Below are positions 721 to 55,280 of a DNA stretch of 64,000 nt, piece after piece. The notes below the pieces were generated by a model. The model had not been told where the DNA came from, did not search any database, and saw nothing but the letters and a program-made list of their open reading frames with translations. The DNA comes from the human T2T-CHM13v2.0 reference genome, Homo sapiens. A program made the position numbers and the translations under genes. The first letter of the stretch is position 1, and each line of letters starts with the position of its first letter. The stretch lies in the NCBI RefSeq assembly GCF_009914755.1, contig NC_060937.1; one strand, written 5' to 3'.

Positions 721-751
721 TTTTTCCATGGAACATTGAAACAGGTCATTT

Positions 752-28410: not shown

Positions 28411-29067
28411 TCACTTGATCTACATGACTGCACCTACAGAGCTTTTTATCTCAGAAATATTATGGAAGAGGCCTATAACATCCAATGTGTGTGATGCAAA
28501 TGTGGTCTTACAGATCTATGAAAGAATTGGGAAGACGTAAGGAGAGAAAAGCAAACAGAACTATCATGTGTTCCTATAAATCACTCTGAGAAGCTTCTTT
28601 TCAGGTTTCAGAAGAGGAACAAAGAACATAGATACTCATCTATTATTCCCCTCTCTGAGAAGATAAAACATCGGATGAAAGAGAGAGAGAAAGAACAACT
28701 GACCTTACATTAGCCCCATTGATTGCTGACAAATAGATTACAAAGCATGGGAATTTATTCAACTCTATGTATGCCTGAGGCTTGACTGAATAGCCACCCA
28801 AAGGTATGATGTTGGTGGCTGCCAAGCCCTGGTCACAAGAGTCAGGGCAAGTCAGAAACCATGGCAGTGGCCAAAAAGAATCCTGTGTAGTGTCATGGTG
28901 TCAGTGCATTTCTGGGCTGGAGACTGGTTAGGGCCTCAAATTGTTTCTACAGTTTCTTAGAAAGTCAATGGCCTACCTTGGTCAAAAACTTCATCCTCTT
29001 TCATTCCACCCATTCCCACCCCCTTTTTTTTTTTTTAGGGTCTTTTCAGGTTCTCAAGACCAATAGT

Positions 29068-29424
29068 CAGAGATAGGTTCACTATGAAGCTAATGAAGAT
29101 TAAGATTTGGAACCCCTCAGGTGCATAAGCCCTGTAGTACAGAGAATAACTAACACTTTTAAAGAATTCTAAATGAGGAGGGAAAGACAGTTTAGAAGAG
29201 GGAAGTATTCCTAAGAAAGCATTTCTGGCAAAATGGCCAAAAAGAGCTTGAAAAGAAGAGATATGAATTTCTGAGCTTCCAGTAATTTGTTACAATATCT
29301 TTACTCATTCCAAATAAATATTTATATTCATATCTAATTTGTAATTTTGTATTATTTTTCTTAAAGATGATCCCTCCCACAAAGTAGGTAGGCTTCAGGC
29401 TCCGCAAAACCTGAAACTGCCCCT
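29068..29424. mobile_element. hAT-Tip100-type DNA transposon (MER69/Arthur-like)
   Basis: tgaagctaatgaagattaag..cccctca..; cttcaggctccgcaaaacctgaaactgcccct. Confidence 0.55.
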
Positions 29425-31699
29425 AAAATAGTGTTAACACGAAAAAAGAATGAATGACTTCACTCATTTGACAACATTTGCCAAATACCAACTCATGCTC
29501 ACAGAGCACAGTGAATGTTGTTGAAGAGAAGAATGCCCAGCACTGGGGCCACACAGGCGAGCAAGGTAGATGTGGTCCTTGTGTTTGAGAACTTGTAGGA
29601 CTGTCAGGACATCAGTGAGCTCATGGTAGATTCACATTCCCTATAATTCACGTTCACTATAATGAGGTAAATTCCTCAGTTCAGCTCTTACAGCTTAGGA
29701 AAGAGCCAGTTGACCATCCATCCAATCTCTTTTGATCCTGTGACTCACAGAAGATGTGGACATGGATCTCCACAGTGATCCTTGACCAAGCCAAAAATCA
29801 TAGTTGACTGCCCTCCCCAAACCCCAAACCCAAAACAGTATTTGTGCCCACTCAACTCACCAGTCTACAAAAAAATGGGACAGACTGGATCAGGTTCATA
29901 AGACACGGGGGTCATCCAAGCCACTGGCCACCTTGGGAGGACCACCCACCAGTCAAGCTGGAAGAAGTGCCAGTTATTAGCTACAGCAGAGCTCATCCAC
30001 CCATTTAAACAATAAATAAATAAAGCATCTATTCCTGGGCTTCACTACAAAACTCAAAGGTTTTGTAGAGTTAGGGTTTAACAGGTTGGGGGAGGATAAA
30101 AATGAAATTGTTTCAAAATCACAAAAACAGCAAGGCCAGCAAGGTACATTGAGTTCTTTAGTACTACTAAAACCGGGGAGGGGGGGGCGCGGCTGCTAAC
30201 TTAAATAGCAAGGCCAAGATCAGCATATTGATTCATTAAATCATTCAGCAAATATTTATTGAGTGCCTAGCATGTGTTAGAGCACACATCTATGAAAAAA
30301 ACAGGATCGCTGTCCTCTTGATGCTGACACTCTAGCAGAAGGAGATAGACAACCAGTGACAGCTGAGAGATCAGGGAGATGGCATGTGCAGGATACAGAA
30401 GATCTGGAGTGTTGGGGCAAAGAGAGGTATGTGTTTCCTGAGAATAGGCATTTCTTTGGCTTTGCCCTGATATGCATCAGAAGGGCTGCAGCAAGGGCAG
30501 GGACTGGTGTTTTCAAACAGAAGCAGGTAACCCCACAACAAGAAAGGGTCGCTCAAACACAACACACATTGACACGATCACTCAGCAGGAGGTACACAAT
30601 AAACAAGTATTTTTGAAATGTAATTTTTCCAGCCAGAGAAAAGATTTCATTGATCATCATTTAAAATAGATTTTCATTTCACATCATCTAACTAACTTAA
30701 AAGGCAACGACCATAAATTCCATTTAATAGGTGGTTCCACTGGGGAGGACTGGTGGGGCAATTGTCAATTAGGTATTGCATAAAAGGATGCAAATATCTC
30801 ATAAAAGTGATGGGAGATTATATTATTGCATTAACCATGTCGTTCTTGCCATGCTGTTACACACCATAGAATAATAACTAACACATTTACAAGGTGGAAA
30901 TCATTCCGAATGTGCTTTTAAACTGTGTGCAAATGCAAATTGTCTTGAATCAGTTCTTAGCACCTTTGGTCAGCCACTTTCTAATCTTCTATTTGCAGGG
31001 GAAAATAATTAATGGGTGAAGTATCTGATAGCATAGGTTATGGGCTCCAGCAAGACATTTTCCAATATGTGTTGTTTTACAGCTGTGCCTTTGAAAGCTA
31101 GGCTGTCAAATCTATAAAAATATAAAAGTGATTAATCCCAACCATAAAAACTTCTAATGATGCCATGCTTCAGCCTCCAATTTTTTCCCAGCTTCTAAGG
31201 TAAAGAATTTCAAAATGCCAACAGAATAATTTGGCAGGAGGGCAGGCTAGTATAATATGAAGTAGATGTGGAAGAGTAGAAAACAGAGAGAGCCTAGGCT
31301 TGTTTACACGGAGGGGGTCAGTCTCAAAAAGAAGAAAACAGGATGGGATGTACCCAATAATTCACTCGAAACAGTAAACAGCCAAGAAGTCAGAAGCAAT
31401 ACTGATGACATCAGATTTTAATGTTCATTTATGAGTTATGAATAAGGGAATTGGTTAATACAACTTAGCTTGTGCCCCCCTCCCCCACTCAGAAAAAAAA
31501 AAAAAACCTTGGTTGTCTGGAGCTCCTAGTTGAGATGCAGTTGCAGAAGGTACGCTCAAACTCAAGTCAAAAGAAATAGCTTTGTTGGGAGGGGAAGCAG
31601 AGTCACATTACATATCAAGAAGAAATATAACTCTATGGATATTCTCAAACTTGAGGGAGAGGCATTCAGGAAAGTATGTTAAAGAAAAGATAGTATAGG

Positions 31700-33210
31700 G
31701 ATCTAGCAGTGACAAAAATCACTGTTTTTCTGGATGGAGATAGTAAACAAGTAGGCAAAACGTAGTAGTATAACAGATAAGTGCTATGGAGAAAAATAAA
31801 ACAGGGAATGGGAAAAGGGAGTACTATTAAAATGGGGGTGGGGGGGTTGCTAACTTAAATTGGGTTGCTGGTGGAACCTCACCGAGAAGGCAGCATTTGA
31901 GCAGAGACCGGAATAAGTGATCCATGCCAATATCAGAGGAAAGAGCCAAAAATCATAGTTGACTGCCATCCCCGAACCCAAAACAGTATTTGTGCTCACT
32001 CACCTCACCAGTCTACAAAAAAATGGGACAGACTGGATCAGGTTCATAAGACATGGGAGCCATCCAAGCCACTGGCCACCTTGGGAGGACCACCCATCAA
32101 TATGATGTTGGTGGCTGCCAAGCCCCGATCACAGGAGTCAGGGCAAGTCAGAAACCATAGCAGTGGCCAGAAAGAATCCTATGTAGCATCATGGTGTCAG
32201 TGCATTTCTGGGCTGGAGCCTAGTTTTGTCTTGTCAGGTTCTCAAGACCAATAGTCAGAGGTAGGTTTACTGTAAAGCTAATGAAAATTAAGATTTGGAA
32301 TCTCTCAGGTGCATAAGCCCTGTAAGCAACAACAGCAGGTGCAAAAGCATGAGGTGAGAAAATGCCTGGCACTTTGGGCATCCAGCAAAGAAGCTGGTAT
32401 GGCTGGAACAGGATGGGAGTAGGTGAGATGGCAGGAGGTGCACCTAGAGAGGTAATGGGGACAGTCAGGAAGGGGCTTGTAGGCTATGGTAAGGACTCTG
32501 GCCATTGGCAGATTCTGAGCAGCCAGCAGAATTATGGCTGTGTTGAGAACAGGCTGAAGAGGGCAAGAGTGGATGTAGGGCAGCTGATGTAACAATTCCA
32601 GGTGTGGCATGGCAATGGCAATGTCCAGGGGGTAACAGTGGAGATGATGAGAAGTGGCTGGATTCTGAATATGTTTATGAGGTAGAGCCAACAGGATTTG
32701 CTGATGAATTGGCAATGGGAGTTGAAAGAGAAATAAAGAGTAACTCTGAAATTTTTGACTTGAGCACTGAAAAGAATTGAATTGCTATAAATGGGGTGGG
32801 GAAGATCTCAGGTATAGCAGGTTTGGAGACAAAAGTAGCAAGAGTTTGGTTTTGACTAAAACATTTTGCATGTTTACTATACAGAGAAGTGAAGATTTTA
32901 TTTAGGTAGTTAGATACACAAATCTTGAACTGAGAGAAGAGGTCAGGCTGGAGATACAAATTGAGAAGTTGTGAGCACATACACAGTTGTTAAAGCTATC
33001 AGACTGGATGAGATAATATAGACAATGGTATGGAGAGAGAAGAGAAGAGGTCCAAGGTTTCAGCCTTACGTGCTTCAACATTTAGCAGTCAGGGCTGAGG
33101 GTGAAGAAGCAGTGGAAGCCCAGAAGGAGTGAACAATGAGGCAGAAGGAAAACTAGATGAATATGGTGTCCTAGAAGGCTCATAAAGAAAGTGCATCAAG
33201 GAGAAGAACA
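31700..33210 (-). mobile_element. L2a LINE interrupted by a non-L2 insert at 31944-32324
   Basis: aagtgctatggagaaaaataaa..gcatttgagcagagac..ccatgccaatatcagaggaaagagc [insert] aacagcaggtgcaaaag..gagaagtggctggattctgaatatg. Confidence 0.85.
31944..32324 (+). repeat. Composite local duplication: copies of 29789-29948, ~28794-28933 and 29035-29136
   Basis: Aligned by eye, ~92-95% identity per segment. Confidence 0.93.
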
Positions 33211-33364
33211 GGAGTCCAAAGCATTGTTGAAGTCATGGAAATAGAGGAAATGAGTTGCAAATAGGTGGTAATTTAAGAATGGGATTCCTGAAGTTGGGAA
33301 GATGGAGGGAGTGGCAGGCAGAATTCTAAGGAAGGAATACACATGGAAATGGATTGCTTAAAAC

Positions 33365-33459
33365 TCTTCATGGTCTTGTACCTCATTAAAAAAAAAGGTC
33401 TTGTACCCCATTTAAAAAAAAAGGTCTTCATGGTCTTGTACCCCATTAAAAAAATGGTC
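33365..33459. repeat. Imperfect triple tandem repeat of ggtcttgtacc(t/c)catt(A)n
   Basis: Directly visible. Confidence 0.9.
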
Positions 33460-33734
33460 AAGGGGGGTTCTCCACCCCAGACACAAGTTCACTGGTCAAT
33501 ATGACTCATACTTTCTCATCTTTTTATAAACATCCAACAACTCCTCCTCCTTCCTCCTGATTCCTCTTTCACATACACAAAAAAATAGAAGCTTCCATAT
33601 GTCCCCCACCACATTTTGCCCACCATCTGTATCATGTCCATGCACTCTGCCTTCCCTTGTATTATTATGGACGCATGTCCTTACTGCCATTTGAACAGTC
33701 TCAAAAGGTTCCATGGAAAAAGAAAACTAGAGAG

Positions 33735-33865
33735 AGAGAGAGAGGATGCAAATACAAGAAAATGTTAACAATTGTTGAATTTATGTGAAGAATATATGGG
33801 TGTTCATTGTGCCATCCTTGCAACTTTGTGAATTTAAAATTTTCCAAAATAAAATTTTGGGAAAT
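33735..33865 (+). mobile_element. L1ME-type 3' end
   Basis: aaaatgttaacaattgttgaat..tatatgggtgttcattgt..tttccaaaataaaa. Confidence 0.75.
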
Positions 33866-33869
33866 ACAC

Positions 33870-34703
<834 letters not shown>

Positions 34704-34709
34704 TCTACG

Positions 34710-36300
34710 TCTAAAAGTTTGGGTATCTAATTGTAGGGAAATGTCTTATGAGTGCTAGGCAGCTTTAAGAATCTGTTTGAATTAGTACTCACAGGTTTAA
34801 AGGATGATCAGTCAGTGTAGGAGTATGCTTTTCTCTAGCCACTTTTATCTACATGGATACAGGGATGAGAAAAAAGTAGAGTCAGATTTAACCATTTTGG
34901 AGTTTTGTCAGGCAAATTAAACAAACGGAGAGAAGAAAAGAGAGCTAATGGTATATTTAAATGAGTGATTATGGTGATTGATCATATGCTGATAAAGGAG
35001 GGCAGTAGAGAGAGGATGGGGATGAGGGACATAAAAATGTGGGAGATTGTGAGTTCAAAGTATCATTGAAGTCATGGAGACAGAGGAAGTGAGCTAGAGA
35101 TAGTAGGTGGTAGTTTAAGAATAGAACTCTTCAAGTTAAGAACATTGAGGGTGTGGTAGGCAGAATTCTAAAATGACCCCCCCTTCTCTCATGACTCAGC
35201 CCTTGGATAGTCTTCTCTGTTTGAGTGTGGGAGGAACCTATGAAGATATGAATATTGCATAGGTGATTGGGTGATGTTACATAGCACAGCTGACTTTAAG
35301 TAAAGAAAGTTAGCCTCAGATAGTCTGACCTAATCAGACATGTAGAACTGACCAATAAGAACTGACCTAACCAGGTGAGTCCTTACAAGGGACAGAGCTC
35401 TCCCTGATAAAAGACATTCAAAACATGAGAAGCACCCTATAGAAAAGAGAATCTCCGTTGTTGCCTATGAAGATTTAGGGGGTCACGTGTCAAGGAATGT
35501 GGGTGGCATCTAGGAGCAGAGAATGGCCCAGACTGACAGCCAGCAAGGCAATGGGGACCTCAGTTCACAACGTCAAGTAACGGAAGTCTGCCACAACCAT
35601 GTGAGGGCCATTTGAGAATGCAGACTGGTGAGACACTGAGCCGAGAATCCCAGCAGTGCGCCCAGATGTCTAACCTACACAACCTTGAGCTAATCAATGG
35701 GTCTTGTTTTAAGCCACTCACTTGTGCTTATTTCCTTTCCAATCCTTTGTGGTAATGTCAAGTTTTAAGATATATGAGCAAAGGATTGAGAGTATAAGGT
35801 TGGGTAAAAGACGATAAACTTGAGGAACTAAAATGCATTGGGATATCTACTTGAATTTACCTGTAATTATAAAAGGACTATGGTGAGGAGAGGGTCAGTG
35901 AACCAGGAGTTAAAATCTTCAGAAAATGAAAGAGAATGACCTAGGGGAAGGGGTCTATGGATGACAGAAACTAGGAGAGATGGGTGTGGAATATGCTGAT
36001 GGTATAAATTACATAGCTGGGGTGAGGGAGCAAAGAGGACAGATAGGAATGGTTTAGAACAGTAATGTGGAGCAAGAAGGACAGCACCCCACCTCTAGGC
36101 GCAGTGGTAGGAGGGCTGTCAGAAAGAAAACAACACCCACTTGAAAAAACTGCTGGAAAAATATTGACTTCAGCAGAGAGTCAAATTTCAGGTAGAGGAA
36201 GAAGGTGGAGAGAATTAGAAGTGGTGGAAATATGGGAGGTCTTTCTAATAACTGACCCAGAACTCTGGAAATCACAGTAGAAAATGTAGAAGGTGTTGAG
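34710..36300 (-). mobile_element. L2 body interrupted by an MLT1 LTR
   Basis: Purine-rich L2 ORF2 antisense-like sequence (gaaccaggagttaaaatcttca, gtttagaacagtaatgtggagcaagaagga). Confidence 0.55.
35152..35730 (+). mobile_element. MaLR LTR (MLT1E/F-like)
   Basis: tgtggtaggcagaattctaaaatgacccc..tctaggagcagagaatggccca..gacagccagcaagg..gttttaagccact. Confidence 0.85.
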
Positions 36301-36759
36301 ACATAGGATATGGGATTAGAGAAGGGAATGGGAGACCCTTAGGGGATGAGAATCCCGCAACGAGCACTGACTTAGGAAGTCTTCATATCTAGTGGTAACT
36401 GATAAGTAAGGATAATAAAAGGCACACATCATGATGATCTCAAGGAGATAATGGCAGACAAGCTTTGAATATTGAAAAGAAGAACTGTTCTCTTACTAAA
36501 GAATGTGATACATGAGGAGTCTTTATTTCTGCTGATGAAGGTGCAAAAGCTTGGAGAGAGGCAGAGCACCCAGACCACTGGGGAACCCTCTCCAATGGGA
36601 TAGAGGTGGATATGAGGTTACCATACACTCTGCACACTCAGGAAATGTAGGTTGAAAATTTGGGTTGAGCTTTCTGCAGCCCAAGCAAAGAGGAAAATGT
36701 AACATTTAAATGAGCCAAAGAGTCCACAAGATAATAATAGAGAAAGCCAGCTATGGTAC

Positions 36760-37194
36760 TGTCTCAGTCTATTTTGTGTTGCTATAATAGAATACCCAAG
36801 GCTGCATAATTTATAAAGAAAAGAGGTTTATTTGGCTCATAATTCTGGTGTCTGGGAAGTCCAAGAGCATGGTGCTGGCATCTGCTTAGCTTCCAGGAAG
36901 GACTATGTCCTGCATCACAACATGGCGAAGAAGCAGAAAGGTGTGCAGCATGTGCAAAGAAACCTAACACAAGAGGCAGCCTCACCTATTACAACCCACT
37001 CTTGCAGGAACTAACCTATTTCTGTGAGAGTGAGAACTCACTTACTCCCATGATATGGCATTAATCATTCATGAGGGTGGTGCTTTCATGATCCAACCAC
37101 CACCTTTCATTAGGTCCCACCTCCCAACATTGCCACATTGGGAATCCTGTTTCAACATGAGATTCGATGTGGACAAACCATATTCAAACCATCA
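36760..37194 (-). mobile_element. MaLR LTR (MST family)
   Basis: tgtctcagtctattttgtgttgctataa..aatttataaagaaaagaggtttatttggctca..tttcaacatgagatt..attcaaaccat. Confidence 0.88.
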
Positions 37195-38474
37195 ATCCAC
37201 GGCAAATGCCTTATCCTAAGAACTAAGAGAAAGTTCTCCCTTGTCTTCTAAAGAGGACAAGTAGTGATGAAGTGAATACTGTTCTCAGCAATAGTATCTA
37301 TAGTAAATACAGCAGTAAATTCTACATGTCTGCTTTTCTCAATGTCCTTCAACACAGAGTGATAGTGTAATGCTTCAGGAACTTTAAATCTTTAGCTTAA
37401 ACCAAGGAAAGATTTTAGTGTATCAAATACAATGGGTTGCACACCTTCTCAGCAATGCTTCATAAATATTGTCCCTCTCATTTATGTATGTTCTAATTAT
37501 TGAGCAGCAGTAAGTTTGAAGTTAAATTTAACAACAAATCTCTATAAAGGAGCTCTTCTCTGTTGCAGGTCAGAAGCACAACCACTGTGGGCAAAAGACA
37601 AGTATTTAATTTATAAATGGAGGTGGACCAAGGAGAATATTGATTCTCTTCAATGCAGATCCCACATTATATACAAATAAATGGATGATTAAAGTCATGC
37701 ACTGTAGAATACAGACATAATAATTTTAACTTAAAAAATGTTTTAAGTACATGTTACCAAATACTCACTTCGGCTAGAAAATAATAAGGGGCAGCAGCAC
37801 CCATTTAACTTTGAGTTACATAACTTCCTGATAAAATTTCCATAAAAAATGGGCTGCAAAATGTTACATCAAAAGAGAGGAATGTTTCATTGGAAGAAGA
37901 AAAAGAGAGAGAGATGAATGTTGTTTCACTGTATCCAGTTGTTATTCGACAAAAGCTATTGAGAAATATCTATAAAAAAATAAATTTTAAAATAGTCAAT
38001 ATGAAAGGCTTTTTGGGGGGAAATAATTAGATGGCAGGGCCAGTTGCCATTGAGTCTACTCTAACTTATGAAATTAAAGATTATGGGCTTGTGTTATAAG
38101 GAACATGGCCATTCCTGATGGACATCACAAAATGGCCCCAAGGAAGCCTGTGGCAGTGGTTAGGGCATCTTCTAGAAAAGGTGTCCCAGAAACAGATCAT
38201 CAGCCAAGTTTCCAGTCTTGCCCTGATGATAATTTCAACTGTGATCTAATAAAGGAAGCAACAAAAGAGTGGATTCTCTGAACTTCATTGAGAAAAACTA
38301 AGAGGTTTTCATTGAAATTGCTGGACATCTTGAGGAGAAGCAAACCTGCCATCTTAGAATTTCTGATATGCAGGAAAGGAAGCCTGGTCATAGCAGGGCA
38401 CAGGCTTTCACCTGCAACATTTTGCTCACATGATTTTATGGCTCAAGACTCTGTGAACTGTTGGGAGGGCAGGC

Positions 38475-38720
38475 AGCTGAATTAAGCATGTGGTAACACT
38501 TGCCATGTGCCTACTATGTTCATGTGCTTTATACACATGATTGTTTTTCATGTTCACAACACACCCATGAGAGGGCATCATCACCATCCCTATTGTCAGG
38601 AAGGGTGGAAGCCAAGTGACTGGGTAGAGGTCACAGAGACAACAAAGGACAGTACCAGGACTGGGACCTTGGTCAGCTTGGCTCCACTGCTGACCCTGGT
38701 TCAACCACACTTTCTCAGAA
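38475..38720 (-). mobile_element. MIR
   Basis: cctactatgttcatgtgctttatacacatg..aagtgactgggtagaggtcacagag. Confidence 0.65.
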
Positions 38721-39154
38721 AAGCCACGCTGTCTATACAAGGGAAAAGCACCCAATAACAAAGGTACAGTAGTGCTATCTTCATAAATGTGTGTATTTAT
38801 GCAGGGAGCTGTCCAAAAAGCTGAAAATATTTAAAAGCTGCTCAAAGGAATGAGAAGAGCACATAACCAAGGCAAGGAGAACATATTCTGAGGGGTAGAG
38901 TGAGCTTTATAGTGGCTGAGGCTAGTTTAAAATGCACAGGAAAACTAGGGGGAAACATTGTCTCATCTTCTTAGTCAGAACATGGCAACCAAGGAAATAG
39001 GCAGATTTCTCAAGGCCAGTGATGCAAGTGAAAGAATGACAAAGAGAAAGCAAAACTCTTCCACTCAAAGGTTGCATCCATTTTTCTGTCTCTAGAGAAA
39101 TTCAGAGATTTTTTTTTCTGGCAAATGCTTCAGCACTATAAAAGTTCCTATTCT

Positions 39155-39486
<332 letters not shown>

Positions 39487-40447
39487 TCAACAGCTTCTGT
39501 AGAAGTTCTGTATTACCAGTTCTGTAGAAGTTCTGTATTACCAGTTCTCTAGCAGCTTCAATTACATGTACGTGGAGTAAGTATTACGGGGCATGCCTGT
39601 GCATGTGTGCATGTGTGTGGGTGTGTGCACATGTATTTGCCATGGAAATGCCTGATTTTATAAATTACTACTAAGTTGAGAGGAATACAGATGAAAATTA
39701 TTTCAAGTCCCTTAGAAACAGAAGTCACTTTTTTTTCTGATATTTGAGAGAAATTGAGCATTTGGCTTTTATCTCCACCTGTTGTCTGCCTGCAAAGCTG
39801 GTGCTTGATATCGCTGCTCTAATTTTGTTTTGTTTTGATTCCTCTGAGAGATTCAAAGGCTCATAGAAATGTTCGTTGTAATTCAGCAATTAGTGTGTCT
39901 GCTGCTTTCCTTTTCTCCTGACCAAAAATGCAAGGTCACTCTGTCCTGTGAAAGTCATTTTCTGCCGACATCTTACACATTAATTTGCTGGCATTAAAAT
40001 CCAGAGGCAAAGAAGAGCAAAATGTCAAAAGTTCCAGTAGATTTTGGGCACAGAACAGTAGGAAAAAGTGAGTGAAAAAAAGCCTTCCAGGCAACTGCTC
40101 TTCTTTGATCCAAAAAAAGTGTTCCTTCAGTTTTTATGTATGAAAACAACAAAAAAGAACAGTTGAAAGGCACAAGCTTCTAAAAGACATCTCACTGGAA
40201 ATTACTTCTTCTAAAATACCGAGTTCACCTTGTCACTCCCCAGCTCTCCAGTCTTCTCTATAGATGATGTCTTCTCTATAGATGAATCCCCAATCTGGTT
40301 TCTCTAAAGTTAGTGTTCAACCTGCCTCCTAAGCTCGTTTCTCATTCCCCTACAGAACCATTCTATCTACTCAAAGTGTTTTGTACAAAAAAAAAAAAAA
40401 AAGGTTCTCATTTCCAGTCTTTCAAACACTATTTTCTAGCCTCAAAT

Positions 40448-46010: not shown

Positions 46011-47884
46011 TTATCTGTTTGTTTGCTTATGTCTTTATCTTGAAATAGGTAATAAATGCACGCAAAGAGGTTTTCAGTAAGAAATAAGTCTTTCTGCCAT
46101 TCCTGGCACCTCGGCTCCCAGTTCTCCTCCCCAGAAGAGGCCACTTACAAAAGTTTCTTATTGTTTTCTTTTTCAGAGATTATAATTAAATTTTCAAAAA
46201 CAGAGTCAGACTTTAAATTTACTATTTAAAGTCATGTTATTTATAGGCACTTTTAAAAGGGAAAACATAATGGCCTAATTTTATTTTCCATATCAATCCA
46301 AATTGCCAGTAAGTGTACTTGCCTCTGAGGCCAGTGAATATTGGAAAGATTCAGCCTTTCCTAATGATACACTTAATTTCATCCCCAAGAAAAGAGGAGC
46401 AGGGACGTTTGTGTGAATCACCCAGTCACCTTAATTCTGCTAGAGTTATTTAAAAATGCTGCTTATTTTTAGTTTAATTGCAGCATAATCATATAACATC
46501 AACTAATCAGAGCTTGGTGACACTAACAAATTGATCTTCAGTACAATCCCAGAAGCCTAGCTAAGAATCATCTGAGTATGTGACTCAGAGGTCACTCACC
46601 TCAAAGATCAAGATATTCCAAAGCTACAAATGCATGGATAGAATTCCATTTAACAAACACTTATCAGTTATCACATGAGTATAAAATCTTACACTAGGCA
46701 ATGTAAGGGAATACAGAGACAGATCAAAGCCTACTGATCCCCTCTAGGAATTTATAATCTAGAAGGAAGGCAGGTACATACATGCAAACATATCTGGTAC
46801 AATTAAAAGTTCTAGTACTGAGGTTTTCATAGGAAGGGAGGCACATTCTGGAAACTAGATGATGATACCAAGCAAACACTTGTTGGAGTCAAACTGCTCA
46901 GAAATTCTCATTTCAGGAAGATGTCTATGCAGTGTATGGTTCTCCAGACTTGTATTTCACTCTTACTACAAGGAATTATTTTATCTCTAAACTAGGTCAG
47001 TGGTTTTTCGGAATATAGGTACATAGAAAAAGAAGATAGTGTTAGAAACTGGGAATCTGTCTTTGTTAATTCCTAAGTTTGTCCTGTTGATCACATTTAA
47101 TGACTATCCTGTGTATACTAAAGAAAAGTAACAGAGTTCTCCTCCCACTGGTGAAATAAAAAATGGATTTGGTGACTTGTTTTCTTTGGAGGGAGAGAGA
47201 TAAGCAATGACTATTGCCAAGCCTAAGAAAGTAGGGAGGGGAAAAGAAGAGATAGTCCTACTGGAGCAAGACTGAGAGAGATTCCTGGCTTCCTCTGAGA
47301 CTTGGCGTTTCCTCTAGATTCTTCAGAAACCATGAAGGCTGAACACAAAAAGAACTGTATCTCAGAACTCACATGCCTGATTCAGAAAAGAAATAACATA
47401 TTGTTGATTGTGGGTAAAATATGCAGGTTTGTGAACCTTAATGGCCCAGAATTTCTTGTTGTTTGTGTGTACAACTAACACTCGATGATTAATATGTGTA
47501 GTATAAGGTATTTTTCATTAAAACTTCCTATAACTTAGGAGAAAAGGTGCTTCTCCTATGATAAAGGTACTCTTGGGGACCCTGAGAGAGAAGATTATGC
47601 TTTACTAAACAAGCTGTGCTGAGGAAGTTCACAAGAAAGTATTCAATTAAAGTGCTACATTTGTGTGTATCTTGGTGTCATCATTAATTACTGAATAATG
47701 TATTAAGTACTCCACAAGGATCACAAAGGTCAGAGCTTACAAACTCTAAAGGTTGATTTACAATTTTATTTATATGCTCATTGATTAAATAAATAAAAAA
47801 CTAGTGCCTTGCCAGGGTCACACAAATTTAAAGTAGAAGTCAAAAACCCTCCTGCTCTTACCATTGATTTGCTATTTTATTTAC

Positions 47885-48387
47885 ATGAGTTAAGAATGCA
47901 TTCAGCTGCAAGTAACAGAAAACCCAACTAATAGGAGCTGAAACAAGTAGAGATTTATTTTTTTCATGTATCAAAGCAGTCCAAAGACTAGTTGCAAATA
48001 ATGTTGGTATACCTGTTCAATAAAACCATCAAGGACCTAGGCTCTTCCTATCTTTTCCTTCCACCATCTCTAATATCCTTAGCATGTCTTTGTAATTGTC
48101 ACTGATTCATCACAAAATGGCTGTAGAGGATCCAGTCATCTTATCTACATATAAGACAGGAAAAAGAAGGAAAAGCTGGCACCATCTCAACTGTCCCCTT
48201 TATCAAGGAAAGCAAAAGGTTTCCCAAAAGCCAGCAGGACTACGATCAACATTGGCTAGAAATGGGCTATGTGGCCACCCTAGCTGTGAAGGCAGCTGGG
48301 AAAGTGAATAACTGGCTCATTTGCCATTGCTGGAGAAAGAAGGTTGAGAATGGCTGTGAAGTTAGCCACTTAGTGGTTGCCACCACA
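47885..48387 (-). mobile_element. Old MaLR LTR (MLT1J/K-like)
   Basis: gcattcagctgcaagtaacagaaaaccc..caaaatggctg..attggctagaa..ggccaccctagctg. Confidence 0.75.
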
Positions 48388-49239
48388 GTATATAATCAAA
48401 CCATTACACTTCCTTAAGCGCCAATTTTCACACCAAAAAGCAGTGTCAAAAGGCACGTGATTATAACTAAATCAAAATAAGGAGAAGTGCACAGATGCCT
48501 GAATATATAACGAACTGGACTGGTTAGCATCTCTAGCTTCATTGGAAATTTAGCCCTTTCTGCCTGTAAAAGATAACCTGGGGTAAGTCAGAGCACCAGG
48601 GGGCCTTGTTTGCTTTGCAGCTGGAAATCAAAAGCTTGGAATAATAGAGTAGCTGCACCGAGGGGTGAGCTTCCTCTCATCATCACACCACCCATCTCAC
48701 TTCAAAGCCTCATTTATTGGGCGGTAAGCCTTTGAAGCCTTTTGATCCAAAACTGAAGCATCTCCCAGCAAGTCCCTGATTTTCATGTGCTCAAAAGTAC
48801 AACACATTAGCATGTATTCGGCACTGGGAGGACAGTGATCTTTTGGGTTTGCAAACTTCTGTGGCTGGTAGTTGTAGTGTGTTTTTCATGTTGTCATTGT
48901 CATTGTTTAATCCAGTATTTTGGGAAACCACTAAAAAGGGCACCAAGTGCAATGAGATTCTTTTCCCACTGTTCTGCATTTCCTGGGATCTTCACTCTAA
49001 CAATAAAACAGGAATGCTGGGATAAGACAACAATGAGTATAACTGTAAAAGATAAGTTGTCTGTATACCTTGGTTTTTTTTTAAATCAAGAATGATAACC
49101 ACAATTATTTGGGGATGCAGGTATATGTTAAAGACTACTGAGAAAAACATAACGCAGACAAGACAGACTCAGTGGCGCAACAGACACAATGACAGTAGGA
49201 GAACACAGTCCATTGAATAGTATTAAAACCTGGAATTTT

Positions 49240-49265
49240 GATAGATAGATAGATAGATAGATAGG

Positions 49266-49318
<53 letters not shown>
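49240..49318. repeat. (GATA)6 GGTA (GATA)12 STR
   Basis: Counted directly. Confidence 0.97.
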
Positions 49319-49455
49319 GAAGGAAGGAAGGAAGGAGAAGGGAAGGGAAGGGAAGAGGGAGGGAGGGAAGGAAGGAGAGAGGGAGAAAGAGAAAAAGGAG
49401 AAAAGGGGAAAATAGAAGAAATAAACAAAACAGCAAGAAAGAAAGGCAAAAAAGA
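49319..49455. repeat. GA-rich polypurine tract (GGAA/GGGA)
   Basis: Directly visible. Confidence 0.9.
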
Positions 49456-50172
49456 ATCTGAACTTGTACTTTGTTTTGAAAAGAAGATAGAAACAAATAG
49501 CAAATGCAGTTATTTGGTCTTAGAAAACTCAACCTTAAAAATCCGAAAACGAATATGATTTGTTCCCCTATTTCCATTCCCTTCTGGCCTGAGTAATACA
49601 ACCTGGACACAAGGGGATTGTGAATTACTGAGATAGTCTTCTTTAACATCTTCCCTTAACAATCTGACTACCCTGAGGATGGCTGTAAGTGCAGAAAAGA
49701 GGTGACCATTTTTTTAAAACTCAGTGTGGTTCATATTGACTTACCACAACAAAGACAAACACTACAACAAGAAAAATTATTATTTTAACTCCCATTCAAA
49801 TTTCCTTTTAGCTTACATTGAGACTACAATTTGTATTAAAATTACTACTGAATGAAAATATTGGTACATCCAGGTGAGTGGTTATTTCTAAAGTAAGATC
49901 TCTGATATTTAGTTATACATGACATTGCAAGTGCATTATTCACCGATTGTTCTAATGAGTATAAGAAAAGAAGAAATGTGATAATTAATAAACTTAACTG
50001 CAGAATTTCAGCTAAGATCATAAGACCAGAAATACGAACTTGCTACCATCAGTCTTTCTTGTCAGGAGCATTACATTCTGTTTAGTTTTTCATGCACCAG
50101 AGTTGTTATGTTAATAACTGTATGATGGTGGAGTGGAAAGAACACAAACTCAGTGTCAGAAAGACCAACGGG

Positions 50173-50501
<329 letters not shown>

Positions 50502-50940
50502 CTATCTGTGACCATGGATCAATTATTTAACCTCCTGTGCCTCAGTATCCTCATTTGAAAAATGGAAATGCTAACATCATACCACAAAGGATAATTGTAT
50601 TTAATGAAGTGACATACAATGTATAGGATACCTGGCACACAGAAGGTACTCAAATCAATGACAGCTGTGTTTCCTGCCCATGATGGACAACAGGACTCAT
50701 CTGCCCTAGAAAGATCTGGTTTATCAAGAGGGCTGTTTGTGGCAATTCTGGAGTTGTGCAATGCATTATCTGCATGTCCTTAAGCGGTAGCCCTCTGCTT
50801 TAATCAGTTCTTCAACAGAGGCAATGCACTCTTTTTTCAGACTATTGGCCAGGGTTAGAAATGCTAGTATTGCAACTAAGCTAATGAATAGGGACACAAA
50901 GGGAGTCAGATATGGGTCTCGTTAACACCATACTATAAGC

Positions 50941-51147
50941 CAGGGGTCAGAAAACAGCCCTCTAGCCAAAATTATTTTTGTAAATAAAGTTTTATTGGAA
51001 CACAGTCACATTGATTCATTTACATAGTGTCTATGGCTTCTTTCACACTACAACAGCAGATTTGACTAGTTGTGGCAGAGACCATATGGCCCACAAGCCT
51101 AAAATACTTACTATCTGTCTCTTTGCAGAAAAAGTTTGCTGAGCTTC
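50941..51147. mobile_element. MER58A (hAT-Charlie)
   Basis: caggggtcag..tttttgtaaataaagttttattggaacacag..gagaccatatggcccacaagcctaaaata..agaaaaagtttgc. Confidence 0.9.
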
Positions 51148-51219
51148 TCTCTAAGAACCCAAACTACAACTATATTCATAGATTCAGTTCATCAGTGGGT
51201 CACATTTTACAGCCTATCA

Positions 51220-52020
51220 TTATAGTAAGCTTGGTGTTGTTTACAAATAAAATGGACAGCAGCCCCTGACAAGAGGTTCATGGTCTTATAAGAAGACTTG
51301 AGGACATGAAAGCAAGCAAGGACTTGTATTAAATTATAAAGTACCCAATTATATAATGGAGGCTACAAATGATACAAGAATCCCAGGATGGGAGAATTCA
51401 AGATATGCTGGAGTCTCAAGAGAATCCTTTCCAGAAGAACTGGGAGAGGAAGCAAACTTTTCAGGAGGATACATGCAACATATATGGAAAGGAAGCAAAG
51501 GTTTCCAGGCAAGAGAGGAGGCAGAGGAAAGCCACAAAAGCAAGAAAAAGTATGATGACCAGCAAATAAATGAGCCCTAATACAGGACGTCAGGAGAGGC
51601 TGTACAGGCAGGGGGAGGAGAGTGGTAAAAATGAGGGTGTACAATCTGACTGGGGGAAACTGGAAAGATCTGGGTCTAGAGAGATTGGACTTGACTCTAG
51701 GCAGGAGAGAGCCATGATCGCTCCCTGTGCAGTACATCCACAGTGTGATTAAAGTCATTTGGGAAGAAAAGAGATTAGAGATAAGAACCCCAATCAGAGT
51801 TTTTTGCATTAATTCAAGTGTAATATGATGACATGATTATTTGAGTAGAAGTAGGGGAAAGAGACAGATCTGAGAGACTTAGTAAGCCAAAACTTGGTGA
51901 CTGGTCTATATGACATGTAATGGACTGGAAAAAGTCTCAAGGATGATTCCAGAATTTCCTGATGGGAAGCCTGGTAGCATGGTGGTACCATCAACAGAAA
52001 GGGGAGCCAATTAAGAAGAA
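51220..52020 (-). mobile_element. L2
   Basis: aagtctcaaggatgattccagaatttc..tggtggtaccatcaacagaaagggg. Confidence 0.6.
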
Positions 52021-52049
52021 AATATCTATACTCCCCTTTTTGGCCCCTC

Positions 52050-52225
52050 CTTTTTATTGTGGTACAAGATATATAACATAAACTTTACCATCTTAGCCAT
52101 TTTTAAGTGTGCAGTTCAGTAGCGTTAAGTATATTCACATTGTTGTGAAACCGATCCCCAGAACTTTTTCATCTTGCAAATCTGAAACTCTATTAACAAC
52201 AACCCTCCCTTTCTCCCTCACCTCA
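52050..52225 (-). mobile_element. L1MA/MB 3' end
   Basis: tttttattgtggta..aacataaactttaccatcttagccatttttaagtgtgcagttcagtagcgttaagtatattcacattgttgtg. Confidence 0.85.
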
Positions 52226-52999
52226 GCATTTATGCTCCTTTTAAATAGACTCAATATTGCAGAATTTCAAGTAATCAGAAATGATGAGTTTGGACCTCGA
52301 ATCTTATATTTATGAGATTTGCAGGCTGAAGCACATCACATGCTACATTCATTCATTCATTCAACAAATGTTAATTGAGTACCTGCTAGTAGATGATAAT
52401 TGGGGTATGCTCTGGAGATAATAAGATGAATAGCATATGACTCCTGCTTTTAAGGCAGACAATAATAAATTTGGTAAAGAAGTTCCCACTAGTAGTGGAG
52501 ACAGAATTGAAAAAAATAATCCCAGCTAGGTGGTATAAAGACTAAATCAGAAATGGGTTCAAGGCACAGTGGTCAAACAACCAATGATCATCAAACAATC
52601 CTAACTTAACTGGTGTCAGATGATGTTGTAATTATAAATGGTAAGAATGCAGGAGAAGAGAGTAAATTTCTTAATATTGGAAGTATGGAAACAAGAGATC
52701 TCCTAAGCAAGGAGAATATTACTAGGGTCAGAATGAATAATAGGTAAAAATATTTAAAACTGACATAAAAAAGACAAGTAACATTTGAGAAAACGCAACC
52801 CATATCTCAAAGATCATAAAATTGTTTACCTTTGTATATTCATTTAACATTTAATTCTTTCCCAATTTAAAGTTAGTGACTTTCCTCCTAATGCTACAAA
52901 TTGTTAATTACAGGGAGCAAATTCACTTTAGAATAATTAGCTTTAGACAATTTGGGTGAAGTACACTTTTTTCCATAGAATAGGGATATTTAGACAGCA

Positions 53000-54205
53000 T
53001 TTCATCACCGTACAACCCGTTACAGCTCATCTAGTTCCCTAGAAAGCATGTAGAAGGTGTTTTGGAAATTTGTTTGTGTAGGTATTTTTCTATGTTTCAT
53101 TGATGCAAGGGGCTCTACTACCCTTTAATGTGGGAGGGCCGGAAATGCTAGCCATCCTGCAATGTGCAGGGTAGCCCCACACCACAGAGAATTGTGCTAC
53201 CTCCAGCATGACTTTCTAACATGCTACACATTCGTGTAGGTGAAAAACCTCTTTGTGATTAACTTAGCCTACAGCCTAACTTCATTCTATATATAAATGC
53301 ACTTTTTTGCACTATTTTAGTAAATACTGAATTTTCTAGGAATGCAAGTACACTGAAAATCCAAAGACAATTGTGATGTCTTGCTTGAAACTTTACCAAT
53401 AGTTGTCTACCATTTTGGACATTCATTTAGAAAACTGCGTTACCAGCAGCATTGCCTCTCGTGGTATATGAGAATAACCAATACGAAAACGTCTTTAACA
53501 GTCTGCACTTTCAGCTGTTTGTTCCAAGTTATTCCATTTTAATTTACAAATATTTTTATGTCACCCTTATTCCAAATGACAAATTTAAAGAAAAAGTATA
53601 AACATAGCTTAGTCTTACTGCTCTGAAAACCAAAGTTATTCATTATAAGCATGTGCAAGTATCTGACCACTTTATTATGAGAAGTGGAGGTAACAGTGAG
53701 CTGAGATCACGCCACAGCACTCCAGCCTGGGTGACAGAGCAAGATCCTGTCTCAAAAAGAAAAAAAAGACCAACCAATCCAGGATCCCCCATGTCCTATC
53801 TGTGACCATGGATCAATTATTTAACCTCCTGTGCCTCATTGTTTACGGAATGAGTGACGAGTATTGAAGGTGACTCTTAAAGAGCCCGGCTCATAGAAGG
53901 AGCTCAGTAAAACAATCTTTACCAATTTCTCAATATTGAAAGTACGGAAACAAGAGATCTCCTAAGCAAGGAGAATATTACTAGGGTCAGAATGAATAAT
54001 AGGTAAAAATATTTAAAATTGACATAAAAAACACAAGTAACATTTGAGAAAACACAGTACCTTTGTATAGGCACGCCTTTACCTATGGAATACAGGCAAT
54101 TTTATTATAAATTACTTTCCATTTATTTCTTACTGATTTACAGATTTATATTATATTGATTTTGAAATTTTATGTTTGTTAAATTAGTTATGAATTTCAT
54201 TTCAC
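53000..54205. mobile_element. MER20B-like hAT-Charlie element interrupted by a non-native insert at 53678-~54069
   Basis: catcctgcaatgtgcagggtagcccc..gaattg..tgtaggtgaaaaacct..ctgaattttctaggaatgcaa..atctgaccactttattatg [insert] .. Confidence 0.7.
53678..54069. repeat. Composite local duplication: copy of 50381-50544 (+), inverted copy of 54281-54360, copy of 52665-52797 (+), possibly 52827-52838
   Basis: Aligned by eye, ~90-95% identity per segment. Confidence 0.93.
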
Positions 54206-54339
54206 ATGAAAAACTTGAGGCCTGGAGAGGTGATAGGTCTTACCCAAGTTAGCTAGCTATTTAGTGGAAAAATCAGAGAGAAGATTGTTTTACTGAGCTC
54301 GTCCCATGAGCCGGGCTCTTTAGGAGACACCTTCAATAC

Positions 54340-55280
54340 TCGTCACTCATTCTGTAAACATGTACTGCATGTTCACCAGCGCCTGGCTTGTGCTAGGGCC
54401 TGATCTTGCCGAGCTGCACAGTTCTTGCCCTCAAGTGAAGGCAGACCAGAAAAAAATCAACTCTCATAAATGCATAAGTACATGAAGTGGTGGTGTTACA
54501 GAGAGGAGGAATCCAACTAAGCCTGTAGGGTTCAAGATCCTCTTCCAAGAGGAACTGACACTCAAGCTTCAATGGCAGGTAGGAATAAATGAGGTGAACA
54601 GGGAGTAGAAAATATTTCAAGCCGAGAGAACAGATAATCTTGGAGGAAAGTCCAGGAGACCATGGCACTCCTACAGAACACGAAGTACTTCAGTTGGTGT
54701 CAGCTGAGGGTAAGAACACAGAAGTGGTGGCAAATGGAGCTGGACAGAAGGGAAGCACACAGCTCATGGAGAGCCTGTTCTCCCTGGTCAAAGAAATTAA
54801 ATGTTCCCTTGAAGTTCACAAAGGAAATGGTGAGGATTTTTAATAGATGTGTGACACCAGGTAATTCACTCTGGTGGCAGTATAAATTTTTAAATGGAAC
54901 ATTTTGCAATAACCCAGACAAGAAGTGAACTGGATTAAGGGAGTGGCCTTGGGTGGGGAGGATGAAATAGACAGCAATGATATAGGGGAAGCAGAATTCA
55001 CAGAATTTGGTGACTGATGGAATTTTCCAGGTTGAGGGAGAGGGGAGACTTGAGAGTGACTTGCTACTGGCTTGGACAATGTGAATAATAAAACCCTTCA
55101 CTACCGTGAACATGGAGGAGGAAGTGGGTAGTTTGGAGGGTGAGGGAGAGAAAGAGTGAGTGTGGACTGGGATATGCTGGGTACATGCATGGATGGGCAT
55201 CCCGGTGGAGACACAGATCTGAACTCAGGAGGCATTTCTGGACTAGAGGGATTAGGGATGCTTATCTAAGAAGTATCAGC
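54340..55280 (-). mobile_element. L2 (followed by MIR, -, ~55285-55430)
   Basis: cactcattctgtaaacatgtactg..ttcttgccctcaag..agaatttggtgactgatgg..tctgaactcaggag. Confidence 0.7.

What the first reader, a model, noticed from the sequence alone, without database searches (positions are those of the whole stretch)
28794..54360. Cluster of fossil locally templated insertions: a possible template-switching repair hotspot
Seen: four separate places within ~25 kb where short segments are copied from DNA 0.4-3.3 kb away: 30160-30206, 31944-32324, 33212-33329 and 53678-~54069. The two large inserts are patchworks of at least three segments of almost the same total size (~380 and ~380-390 bp). Both interrupt an older transposon and have no polyA or TSD. 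Established: multi-segment nearby-templated inserts with microhomology junctions are the signature of MMBIR/FoSTeS or polymerase theta-mediated end joining. Inference: divergences of ~5-10% and ~20% imply germline events of at least two ages, so the locus may be repeatedly prone to this repair. The matching ~380-bp size may be coincidence or a synthesis-length limit.
Basis: partly seen in the sequence, partly recalled or inferred. Interest (0 to 1): 0.8.

Follow-up and report, generated by a model that had tools for sequence, protein, structure and literature searches.

The report
Two ancient patchwork repair insertions
Two roughly 380-base inserts, each stitched from three pieces copied from DNA a few kilobases away, are old scars of sloppy DNA-break repair of a kind already catalogued in primate genomes, and a local "hotspot" is not shown.

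Summary
The core observation is real. Insert 1 (31944-32324, 381 bp) is three direct copies of 29789-29951, 28794-28929 and 29040-29136. Insert 2 (53678-54056, 379 bp) copies 50381-50544, 54360-54281 (inverted) and 52665-52797. Every base is accounted for, apart from 1-4 nt fillers.

- **Local origin:** the non-Alu segments match nothing else in the genome.
- **Insertion sites:** both inserts split old interspersed repeats whose flanks are colinear in other copies.
- **Not retroposition:** neither insert has a target-site duplication (TSD) or poly-A tail.
- **Third pair:** 33212-33329 / 35051-35171 is real, single-segment and older (19.5% against about 7% mismatch).
- **Fourth place:** 30160-30206 is not established.

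These fit "repair-mediated duplications" (Pace et al. 2009: 824 proximal cases in the human genome, no clustering seen). They are a rare three-donor form, made by microhomology-primed copying of nearby templates at a break.

The hotspot claim is untested. One oddity remains: the two patches have equal size, segment number and age (7.0% against 6.7%, p=0.89), which could mean one shared episode.

Verdict: a new member of a known kind, of modest interest.

The parts
31944..32324 (+). Insert 1, a 381-bp three-segment patchwork. 31944-32099 copies source C. 32100-32225 copies source A (overlap zone 32090-32099). 32226-32227 is TT. 32228-32324 copies source B.
   Evidence: The whole-genome search finds only the three local sources.
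29789..29951 (+). Source C of insert 1, 2.16 kb upstream of the insertion site. It ends in CCACCCACCA.
   Evidence: There are 7 mismatches in 146 aligned nt plus one 7-nt gap.
28794..28929 (+). Source A of insert 1, 3.3 kb upstream. It starts with CCACCCA, the in-register microhomology with the end of source C.
   Evidence: 11 of 126 nt are mismatched.
29040..29136 (+). Source B of insert 1, 110 bp downstream of source A.
   Evidence: 8 of 97 nt are mismatched.
31722..31943 (.). Left part of the old interspersed repeat split by insert 1.
   Evidence: Alignments to copies L024, L025 and L027 reach window 31907, 31945 and 31965, that is, about the insert start.
32325..33208 (.). Right part of the same old repeat: blocks at 32331-32502 and 32660-32802, and 32824-33208 aligned to L049.
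   Evidence: L029 carries 31775-31819, 32331-32502 and 32660-32802 colinearly once its own Alu insertions are discounted. The Alu at L029 1740-2057 was predicted before it was looked for, then found.
53678..54056 (+). Insert 2, a 379-bp three-segment patchwork. 53678-53838 is seg1. 53839 is a T. 53840-53919 is seg2 (inverted). 53920-53923 is TACC. 53924-54056 is seg3.
50381..50544 (+). Source of seg1: the 3' end of an Alu, its poly-A, and 63 bp of an adjoining older repeat that runs on past 50544.
   Evidence: The flank is 99% identical to the copy over 67 nt, whereas 24 other family hits are 75-91% identical and extend beyond the segment end.
54281..54360 (-). Source of seg2, 225 bp downstream of the insert and copied in inverse orientation. 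Together with 53840-53919 it now forms an 80-nt inverted repeat with a 361-nt spacer.
52665..52797 (+). Source of seg3, 1.26 kb upstream (start to start).
   Evidence: It is unique in the genome apart from its copy (2 of 2 matches).
53056..53677 (.). Left part of the old interspersed repeat split by insert 2.
   Evidence: L038 aligns 53224-53678 to its 1688-1223, ending exactly at the insert start.
54057..54205 (.). Right part of the same old repeat.
   Evidence: L038 continues at 1175-1102 for window 54099-54172. The gap is 47 nt in L038 against 42 nt in the window after the insert is removed. Flanks are colinear in 9 of 13 loci compared (L032, L033, L034, L037, L038, L040, L042, L043, L044); the other 4 matched one side only.
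33212..33329 (+). Older single-segment local copy (pair 3), probably the acceptor.
   Evidence: 78.5% identity to 35051-35171. The pair is unique in the genome. 23 of 118 nt are mismatched. It begins 4 nt after the old-repeat alignment ends at 33208.
35051..35171 (+). Probable donor of pair 3. Its last 20 nt run into another old repeat (35152-35248) that the copy truncates.
   Evidence: 7 genome hits cover query 453-549.
30160..30206 (+). Not established.
   Evidence: score 24. It is absent from the scans.

Best explanation
Each large insert is the scar of one ancient germline DNA break inside an old transposon.

Proposed mechanism:
1. The break was repaired by copying short stretches (80-164 nt) of nearby DNA, 0.2-3.3 kb away on the same chromosome or sister chromatid.
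2. The growing 3' end(s) switched template twice.
3. The ends were then rejoined.

Insert 1: the left end copied source C. The other end, or the same end after switching, copied sources B and A. The products met at a 7-10 nt in-register microhomology (CCACCCA).

Insert 2: the pieces came from 3.3 kb upstream, from 0.2 kb downstream in reverse, and from 1.3 kb upstream. They are joined with a 1-nt and a 4-nt filler.

The donors stayed intact, so this is copying, not cut-and-paste. It is the chimeric, three-donor form of 'repair-mediated duplication'. That process is synthesis-dependent strand annealing (SDSA) from ectopic proximal templates, mechanistically the same family as microhomology-mediated template switching (MMBIR, microhomology-mediated break-induced replication, and FoSTeS, fork stalling and template switching).

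Shown:
- the anatomy of both inserts;
- that the templates are unique in the genome;
- the direction of copying;
- that each insert interrupts an old repeat;
- the absence of TSD and poly-A;
- the equal age of the two inserts.

Inferred:
- that a break started each event;
- which end copied which piece;
- the polymerases involved;
- that the events were germline (they are fixed in this assembly at about 7% divergence).
For: - All 381 and 379 bases are accounted for by local templates plus 2, 1 and 4 filler bases.
- The templates are unique in the 3.1-Gb genome. Where a template touches a repeat, the copy is far closer to the local source than to any other family member: 99% against at most 91%.
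- The flanks of each insert are colinear in other copies of an old repeat.
- There is no TSD and no poly-A.
- Divergence is homogeneous within each insert (chi-square p=0.39 and 0.45), as expected for single events.
- Segment sizes and junction types match published repair products. Proximal RDs have mean 162, median 147 and maximum 619 bp, with donors mostly under 3 kb away, microhomology of 2-9 nt, filler of 1-68 nt and no poly-A. MM-BIR insertions have medians of 77-234 bp and junction overlaps with a median of 2-3 bp.
Against: - No outgroup genome could be consulted, so the empty sites are inferred from diverged paralogous repeat copies (63-75% identity). These fix the breakpoints only to within about 10 bp.
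- Only one of the four internal junctions has microhomology beyond chance. The outer junctions have 0-3 nt.
- The published catalogue lists chimeras of two donors only (20 of 1,136). No three-donor case is mentioned in the sections read.
- The C-A-B order of insert 1 is also what a re-opened DNA circle would give.
Confidence: 0.8

Rival explanations
1. Persistent local hotspot: this 25-kb stretch is intrinsically prone to breaks repaired by template switching, so events recur there over time.
For: - Three local copy events fall within 25.6 kb and none in the other 38.4 kb of the window.
- Two of them (insert 1 and the pair-3 copy) lie about 0.9 kb apart in the same old repeat and differ in age (p=5e-5).
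- In 42 unrelated 3.1-kb loci (130,166 bp), only 1 non-tandem, non-family local pair was found, 66 bp long.
Against: - The window was picked because of these events, so the comparisons are ascertained.
- The two large inserts are the same age, so they do not show recurrence.
- Pace et al. saw no trend for 824 proximal RDs to cluster (passage).
- Their 33 chr13 rows show 1 adjacent gap of 25.6 kb or less against 0.28 expected (P=0.25).
- At their density, 5-25 chance pairs within 21.7 kb are expected genome-wide.
Confidence: 0.2
2. One shared episode: both patches arose in the same germline event or generation. An example would be one long repair-replication tract of at least 21.7 kb with two bursts of template switching, or one cell with a transient repair defect.
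For: - The sizes are equal: 381 against 379 bp.
- Both have three segments.
- The divergence is indistinguishable: 26/369 = 7.0% against 25/374 = 6.7%, Fisher p=0.89. Without the Alu part of insert 2 the figure is 15/284 = 5.3% (my count).
- Five of the six donors lie upstream in direct orientation.
- If multi-donor events number a few hundred or fewer genome-wide, under 0.4 chance pairs within 21.7 kb are expected.
Against: - All of these coincidences were noticed after the fact.
- The age test has low power, at about 25 differences each.
- The scan found no further small template switches between the two sites.
- Multi-donor events may be common. In 15 of 101 distinct catalogue rows that I read, 40 bp or more is unexplained 'filler' that could hide extra donors. 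That puts the expected number of chance pairs near 0.4-0.5.
Confidence: 0.25
3. Capture of free DNA: small circular or linear by-product DNA from the neighbourhood (microDNA or eccDNA, extrachromosomal circular DNA) was ligated into a break by end joining.
For: - Insert 1 is a rotation (C-A-B) of the genomic order.
- The 1,158-bp source span begins and ends with the same 7-mer, as expected for circle closure at microhomology.
- MicroDNA is 100-400 bp long and depends on microhomology-mediated end joining. Chimeric circles and reintegration are described (review passages).
Against: - Insert 1 would still need two internal losses, of 110 and 652 bp.
- Insert 2 needs three dispersed pieces, one of them inverted.
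- The donors are intact, so copying is needed in any case.
Confidence: 0.1
4. RNA-mediated origin: reverse-transcribed local transcripts (spliced, circular or chimeric) were inserted by LINE-1 machinery or used as a patch at a break.
For: - The insert sizes fall within the 73-414 bp range of experimental templated patches.
- In the sources, GT follows segments B and C, and AG precedes segment A (read).
Against: - There is no TSD and no poly-A.
- The C/A junction is an in-register overlap, not an exon-exon join.
- The A/B junction carries two extra T bases and does not sit at an AG.
- The boundaries of insert 2 lack splice signals, apart from a GT after the seg1 source, and one piece is inverted.
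- Published RNA-derived patches come from distant loci.
Confidence: 0.03
5. Not a real feature: the segments are independent members of repeat families, or an assembly artefact.
For: The first 100 nt of seg1 are Alu sequence that matches many loci at 84-91%.
Against: - The other five segments and the seg1 flank match only their local partner.
- Five to ten per cent divergence between copy and source cannot come from mis-assembly of reads.
Confidence: 0.01

Closest known systems
[quoted passage not shown] Read here: abstract, sections 6, 7, 11 and 14, passages, and Table S1 part 1 plus all chr13 rows.
   Same: - Non-repeat inserts of at least 50 bp inside transposons.
- A unique donor within 5 kb on the same chromosome.
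- No poly-A.
- Microhomology or filler at the breakpoints.
- Ages spread over primate evolution.
- Attributed to SDSA from ectopic templates, with chimeric acceptors predicted and seen.
   Different: - Here there are three proximal donors per insert. The paper reports 20 two-donor chimeras, and only 5 of those have both donors proximal.
- The inserts are about 380 bp, against a mean of 162 and a maximum of 619.
- Two such inserts lie 21.7 kb apart.
- Neither appears among the 33 proximal chr13 rows of Table S1. No row lies between hg18 36.8 and 41.4 Mb, and none has these lengths and distances. The window's hg18 position, about 39.7 Mb, is my rough estimate from recall.
Germline MMBIR-type templated insertions (MMB-TIs; Osia et al. 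2021, PMC8421209; abstract and passages read)
   Same: - Germline, microhomology-primed template switching.
[quoted passage not shown]
- About 100 events per person, 26-33 of them complex.
   Different: Those events are defined as inserts of 10 bp up to read length, with templates within 100 bp. Here the segments are 80-164 nt and the templates are 0.2-3.3 kb away.
MM-BIR complex insertions and chromoanasynthesis at telomeric breaks (PMC13065848; abstract and passages read)
   Same: - Chains of three or more short templated pieces, with medians of 77-234 bp.
- About half of the junctions have a 2-3 nt overlap; the others are blunt or carry filler.
   Different: - Those are somatic events in cultured cells.
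- Their donors are scattered over all chromosomes.
- They involve many more pieces and amplification.
Class 2 templated sequence insertion polymorphisms (PMC5110952; abstract and passages read)
   Same: Break-repair patches of 73-414 bp without TSD or poly-A, with microhomology and non-templated bases.
   Different: Their templates are distant and RNA-derived, and each patch is a single piece.
'Doublets', short paired local duplications (Thomas et al. 2004). Known to me only through the passage in Pace et al..
   Same: Short, low-copy duplications lying close together.
   Different: They are nearly identical pairs under 100 bp. No patchwork structure is described in the passage read.

Membership tests
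Repair-mediated duplication (Pace et al. 2009) | An insert of at least 50 bp interrupts a transposon whose two parts are colinear in the family. | tested here: met
   - Insert 1: L029 is colinear across the site after its own Alu is removed.
- Insert 2: L038 is contiguous, and 9 of 13 loci are colinear on both sides.
- No repeat library was available, so paralogous copies were used in place of a consensus.
Repair-mediated duplication (Pace et al. 2009) | The inserted sequence has one parental copy and is otherwise unique in the genome. | tested here: met
   The search is word-based and scores only the best candidates. In one search, 40 of 872 candidates were scored, so searches were run to close that gap.
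Repair-mediated duplication (Pace et al. 2009) | The donor lies within 5 kb on the same chromosome and more than 50 bp away. | tested here: met
   The start-to-start distances are 2155, 3296, 3188, 3297, 441 and 1259 bp.
Repair-mediated duplication (Pace et al. 2009) | No poly-A/T tail. Breakpoints show microhomology, filler or a small deletion. | tested here: met
   - No poly-A and no TSD.
- A 7-10 nt microhomology at the C/A junction.
- Fillers TT, T and TACC.
- 0-3 nt at the outer junctions.
Repair-mediated duplication (Pace et al. 2009) | An empty orthologous site in an outgroup species. | not testable with these tools
   No primate genomes are held.
MMBIR / FoSTeS complex templated insertion | Two or more template switches with microhomology at the joins, templates nearby, and either orientation. 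| tested here: inconclusive
   - Each insert has two internal switches.
- One of the six pieces is inverted.
- Only one of the four internal joins has microhomology above chance.
- A one-ended break or replication dependence cannot be read from the sequence.
Short templated inserts as operationally defined for MMB-TI / polymerase-theta end joining | The insert is at most read length and its template lies within about 100 bp of the break. | tested here: not met
   The templates are 225 bp to 3.3 kb away and the inserts are about 380 bp. The definition is from the passage.
LINE-1-mediated retroposition / class 1 TSIP | A target-site duplication of at least 5 bp and a poly-A tail. | tested here: not met
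.
Interspersed repeat family copies | Many diverged copies across the genome, none privileged. | tested here: not met
Reintegrated eccDNA / microDNA | The insert is a rotation of one contiguous source, closed at a short direct repeat. | tested here: inconclusive
   - Insert 1 is a rotation with a 7-nt repeat at the ends of the span, but it lacks 110 and 652 bp of that span.
- Insert 2 does not fit: it has three dispersed donors, one of them inverted.

The most novel reading that the evidence does not exclude
The two patches are twins from one germline repair episode. A single long, switch-prone repair-replication tract (or one cell generation with faulty repair) left two three-donor patches 21.7 kb apart. 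Their near-identical length (381 and 379 bp, roughly two nucleosome repeats) reflects a physical limit on how much ectopic synthesis is tolerated before the end returns home. That would make this a fossil of a small-scale germline 'chromoanasynthesis' with quantised patch length.
Probability: 0.15. Interest if true: 0.6.

Novelty: new member of a known kind. Interest (0 to 1): 0.35.

Why it matters
Local capture of nearby DNA during break repair is a documented but little-studied source of new sequence in primate genomes. These two cases are clean, fully resolved three-donor examples, larger than most catalogued ones. The 2009 catalogue's rule of a single parental copy could miss such cases; 15 of the 101 of its rows that I read carry 40 bp or more of unexplained 'filler'.

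If the pair proves to share one branch of the primate tree, it would show that multi-site, template-switching repair episodes occur and get fixed in the germline. If patch lengths prove quantised genome-wide, that would give a handle on what limits ectopic synthesis.

As it stands the locus has no annotated function, and the events look neutral.

Tried and rejected
- **Splice or circular-RNA origin of insert 1.** AG precedes source A, and GT follows sources B and C. The junctions in the copy are not exon-exon joins, so this was rejected.
- **Target-site duplication.** The left and right flanks of insert 1 seemed to overlap on L029 (the left alignment scores only 16). The flanks are not similar to each other and the common string is at null length, so this was rejected.
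- **Global alignment across insert 2 against L038**. It was uninformative because the sequence is AT-rich. Separate local alignments were used instead.
- **Error-prone synthesis.** In the Alu part of seg1, 7 of 10 differences are derived in the copy and 3 in the source (56 other Alu copies served as reference). This is not significant. One adjacent double change was noted.
- **More small template switches between the two inserts.** None were found.
- **Naming the interrupted repeats by protein domains.** The family names that came to mind are recalled only and are left out.
- **Mb-scale background sample.** It was replaced by a weak control on 42 loci already held and by published densities. 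My first pooled pipeline missed known segments in the window and was redone per locus.

Full report
**What is there**

Insert 1 (31944-32324, 381 bp) consists of three parts:
- 31944-32099, copied from 29789-29951 (source C, 91%);
- 32090/32100-32225, copied from 28794-28929 (source A, 90%);
- two T bases, then 32228-32324, copied from 29040-29136 (source B, 92%).

All three are in direct orientation, but in the order C-A-B, whereas the genome has A-B-C.

Insert 2 (53678-54056, 379 bp) consists of:
- 53678-53838, copied from 50381-50544 (90%);
- one T;
- 53840-53919, the reverse complement of 54281-54360 (93%);
- the filler TACC;
- 53924-54056, copied from 52665-52797 (95%).

Every base of both inserts is accounted for.

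**More than chance, and not repeat families**

BLAST E-values are 1e-27 to 1e-48. Whole-genome searches give the following:
- Insert 1 matches itself and its three sources only (4 matches, 3 of 3 candidates scored).
- The source region 28500-30300 matches the insert and, elsewhere in the genome, only an old repeat lying between B and C plus three short hits (33-43 nt) at 30227-30276, outside all three source segments.
- In one search only 40 of 872 candidates were scored, because of the Alu part of seg1, so I ran dedicated searches.
- The seg3 source matches itself and its copy (2 of 2).
- The seg2 source region matches only its copy.
- The 67-nt non-Alu flank of seg1 is 99% identical to its copy. 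The 24 other hits of an old repeat family are 75-91% identical and run on past the point where the copy stops.

That last result also gives the direction of copying: the source carries the whole old repeat and the insert a truncated piece. The genome search is word-based and scores only its best candidates, so 'unique' holds within that sensitivity.

**The insertion sites**

No repeat library was on hand, so I used paralogous copies of the flanking repeats as stand-ins for empty sites.

For insert 1:
- Left-flank alignments to L024, L025 and L027 reach window 31907, 31945 and 31965.
- Right-flank alignments to L029 and L030 start at 32331 and 32394.
- In L029 the blocks 31775-31819, 32331-32502 and 32660-32802 are colinear.
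- The extra 300 bp in L029 between the first two blocks should, I predicted, be an Alu. It is one, at L029 1740-2057.

For insert 2:
- L038 aligns 53224-53678 and then 54099-54172, with 47 nt between the blocks. The window has 42 nt there once the insert is removed.
- 9 of 13 loci compared carry both flanks colinearly; the other 4 matched one side only.

So both inserts split old interspersed repeats whose copies are 63-75% identical, with no large target loss. The resolution is about 10 bp. There is no target-site duplication and no poly-A tail: the longest flank-to-flank common strings are 4 and 5 nt, against a null mean of 4.4 and a 95th percentile of 6.

**Junctions**

- *C/A in insert 1.* Source C ends in CCACCCACCA and source A begins with CCACCCAAAG. 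The copy reads through in register with both, which gives a 7-nt perfect and 10-nt imperfect microhomology.
- *Other internal joins.* These carry TT, T and TACC.
- *Outer joins.* These have 0-3 nt of ambiguity.

This mix of microhomology, short filler and blunt joins is what is published for break repair with ectopic synthesis.

**Ages**

- Insert 1: 26 mismatches in 369 aligned positions (7.0%).
- Insert 2: 25 in 374 (6.7%).
- The two do not differ (Fisher p=0.89).
- Divergence is homogeneous among the three segments of each insert (p=0.39 and 0.45), as expected for single events.
- The Alu part of seg1 is the most diverged. Without it insert 2 stands at 15/284 (5.3%), by my count, which is still compatible with insert 1.
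- Pair 3 (33212-33329 against 35051-35171) has 23/118 (19.5%) and is older (p=5e-5).

**The other two places**

Pair 3 is unique in the genome. The 35051-35171 member runs 20 nt into another old repeat (35152-35248, 7 genome hits) that the other member truncates. So 35051-35171 is probably the donor and 33212-33329 the copy. The copy sits 4 nt beyond the end of the same old repeat that insert 1 splits.

The 47-nt similarity of 30160-30206 to 31820-31860 scores 24. That is above every non-duplicated tile in the region, but it fails the two window-wide scans. I treat it as not established.

**What it is**

The closest description in print is 'repair-mediated duplication' (Pace et al. 2009, PMC2671141). 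I read the abstract, sections 6, 7, 11 and 14, passages, Table S1 part 1, and every chr13 row of Table S1. Their findings:
- 824 inserts of at least 50 bp inside human transposons have a unique donor within 5 kb.
- Mean length is 162 bp, median 147 and maximum 619.
- None of the 39 inspected proximal cases has poly-A.
- Breakpoints show microhomology of 2-9 nt, filler of 1-68 nt or small deletions.
- The events are attributed to synthesis-dependent strand annealing from an ectopic nearby template.
- In 20 of 1,136 cases the acceptor is a chimera of two donors; in 5 of those both donors are proximal.

The present inserts meet every feature I could test, but each has three proximal donors. They are not among the 33 proximal chr13 rows of Table S1.

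Related literature describes:
- germline multi-template insertions at a smaller scale (Osia et al. 2021);

The mechanism I commit to is as follows. A break inside the old repeat was repaired by 3' ends that copied 80-164 nt from nearby DNA, switched template twice, and were rejoined. In insert 1 the rejoining was by annealing at the CCACCCA overlap. Which end copied which piece, and which polymerases acted, is inference.

**Hotspot or not**

What I could do:
- In the 38.4 kb of the window outside the finding there are no such events.
- In 42 unrelated 3.1-kb loci already held (130,166 bp) there is one 66-bp inverted low-copy pair, in L041. The other candidates are tandem arrays or repeat families. 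That control can only see donors within 3 kb, and the window was chosen for its events, so it shows only that such events are not everywhere.
- Pace et al. state that they saw no trend for RDs to cluster.
- Their 33 chr13 rows have 1 adjacent gap of 25.6 kb or less against 0.28 expected (P=0.25), and 2 of 64 kb or less against 0.69 expected (P=0.15).
- With 824 to 1,800 events genome-wide, 5 to 25 chance pairs within 21.7 kb are expected. A pair found by a whole-genome scan is therefore not surprising in itself.

For multi-donor events the expectation depends on their unknown number: 0.02 pairs for 50 events, 0.37 for 220, and 1.9 for 500. In the catalogue rows I read, 15 of 101 distinct rows have 40 bp or more of unexplained filler that could hide further donors. 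This argues for the hundreds. So chance remains a live explanation.

**The residual oddity**

The two patches agree in length (381 and 379 bp), in segment number (three) and in age. These agreements were noticed after the fact. Together with the 21.7-kb spacing they make a shared origin worth testing: one repair episode, or a length limit on ectopic synthesis. I give a shared episode about one chance in four. It is directly testable by asking whether both inserts appear on the same primate branch.

**Verdict**

- The hotspot inference is not supported by what could be tested.
- This is a new, unusually complex member of a known kind, at a locus with no annotated function.

Noticed in passing
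window 25944-26041 (-): An Rfam mir-544 precursor model matches just above its gathering score (67.3 against 66.5 bits). The stretch also has a 69% inverted partner at 22458-22593, so it is probably a hairpin-forming old repeat, not a microRNA gene.
   Followed up: no
window 13984-14089 (+): Full-length Y RNA match (65.1 bits). This agrees with the annotated RNY3P9 pseudogene.
   Followed up: no
window 53840-53919 and 54281-54360: Insert 2 created an 80-nt inverted repeat, 93% complementary, with a 361-nt spacer. This is a potential hairpin or cruciform that did not exist before the insertion.
   Followed up: partly
window 53692-53693 (source 50395-50396): There is an adjacent double substitution (TG in the source and in 53 of 54 other Alu copies, AA in the copy) within seg1. 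A tandem change of this kind is sometimes linked to error-prone synthesis. This is a single case only.
   Followed up: partly
window 33360-33454: A small tandem array of a 26-35 nt unit ending in an A-run lies 30 nt after the pair-3 copy. Its origin was not examined.
   Followed up: no
window 748-1938: A long tandem array gives many offset self-matches at 76-82% identity. It coincides with a stretch that NCBI masks (743-1901).
   Followed up: no
window 49240-49385: Adjacent GATA (about 20 copies) and GAAG-type microsatellites.
   Followed up: no
L041 2367-2432 and 2896-2832 (chromosome 2 locus fetched as a flank relative): A 66-bp inverted low-copy local pair at 85% identity. It is the only such pair in 130 kb of unrelated loci and is possibly another small repair-mediated duplication.
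   Followed up: no
Pace et al. 2009 Table S1: Many catalogued events carry large 'filler' (for example 73, 78, 87, 90 and 111 bp). In the light of the present patchworks, these may be unrecognised second or third donors.
   Followed up: partly
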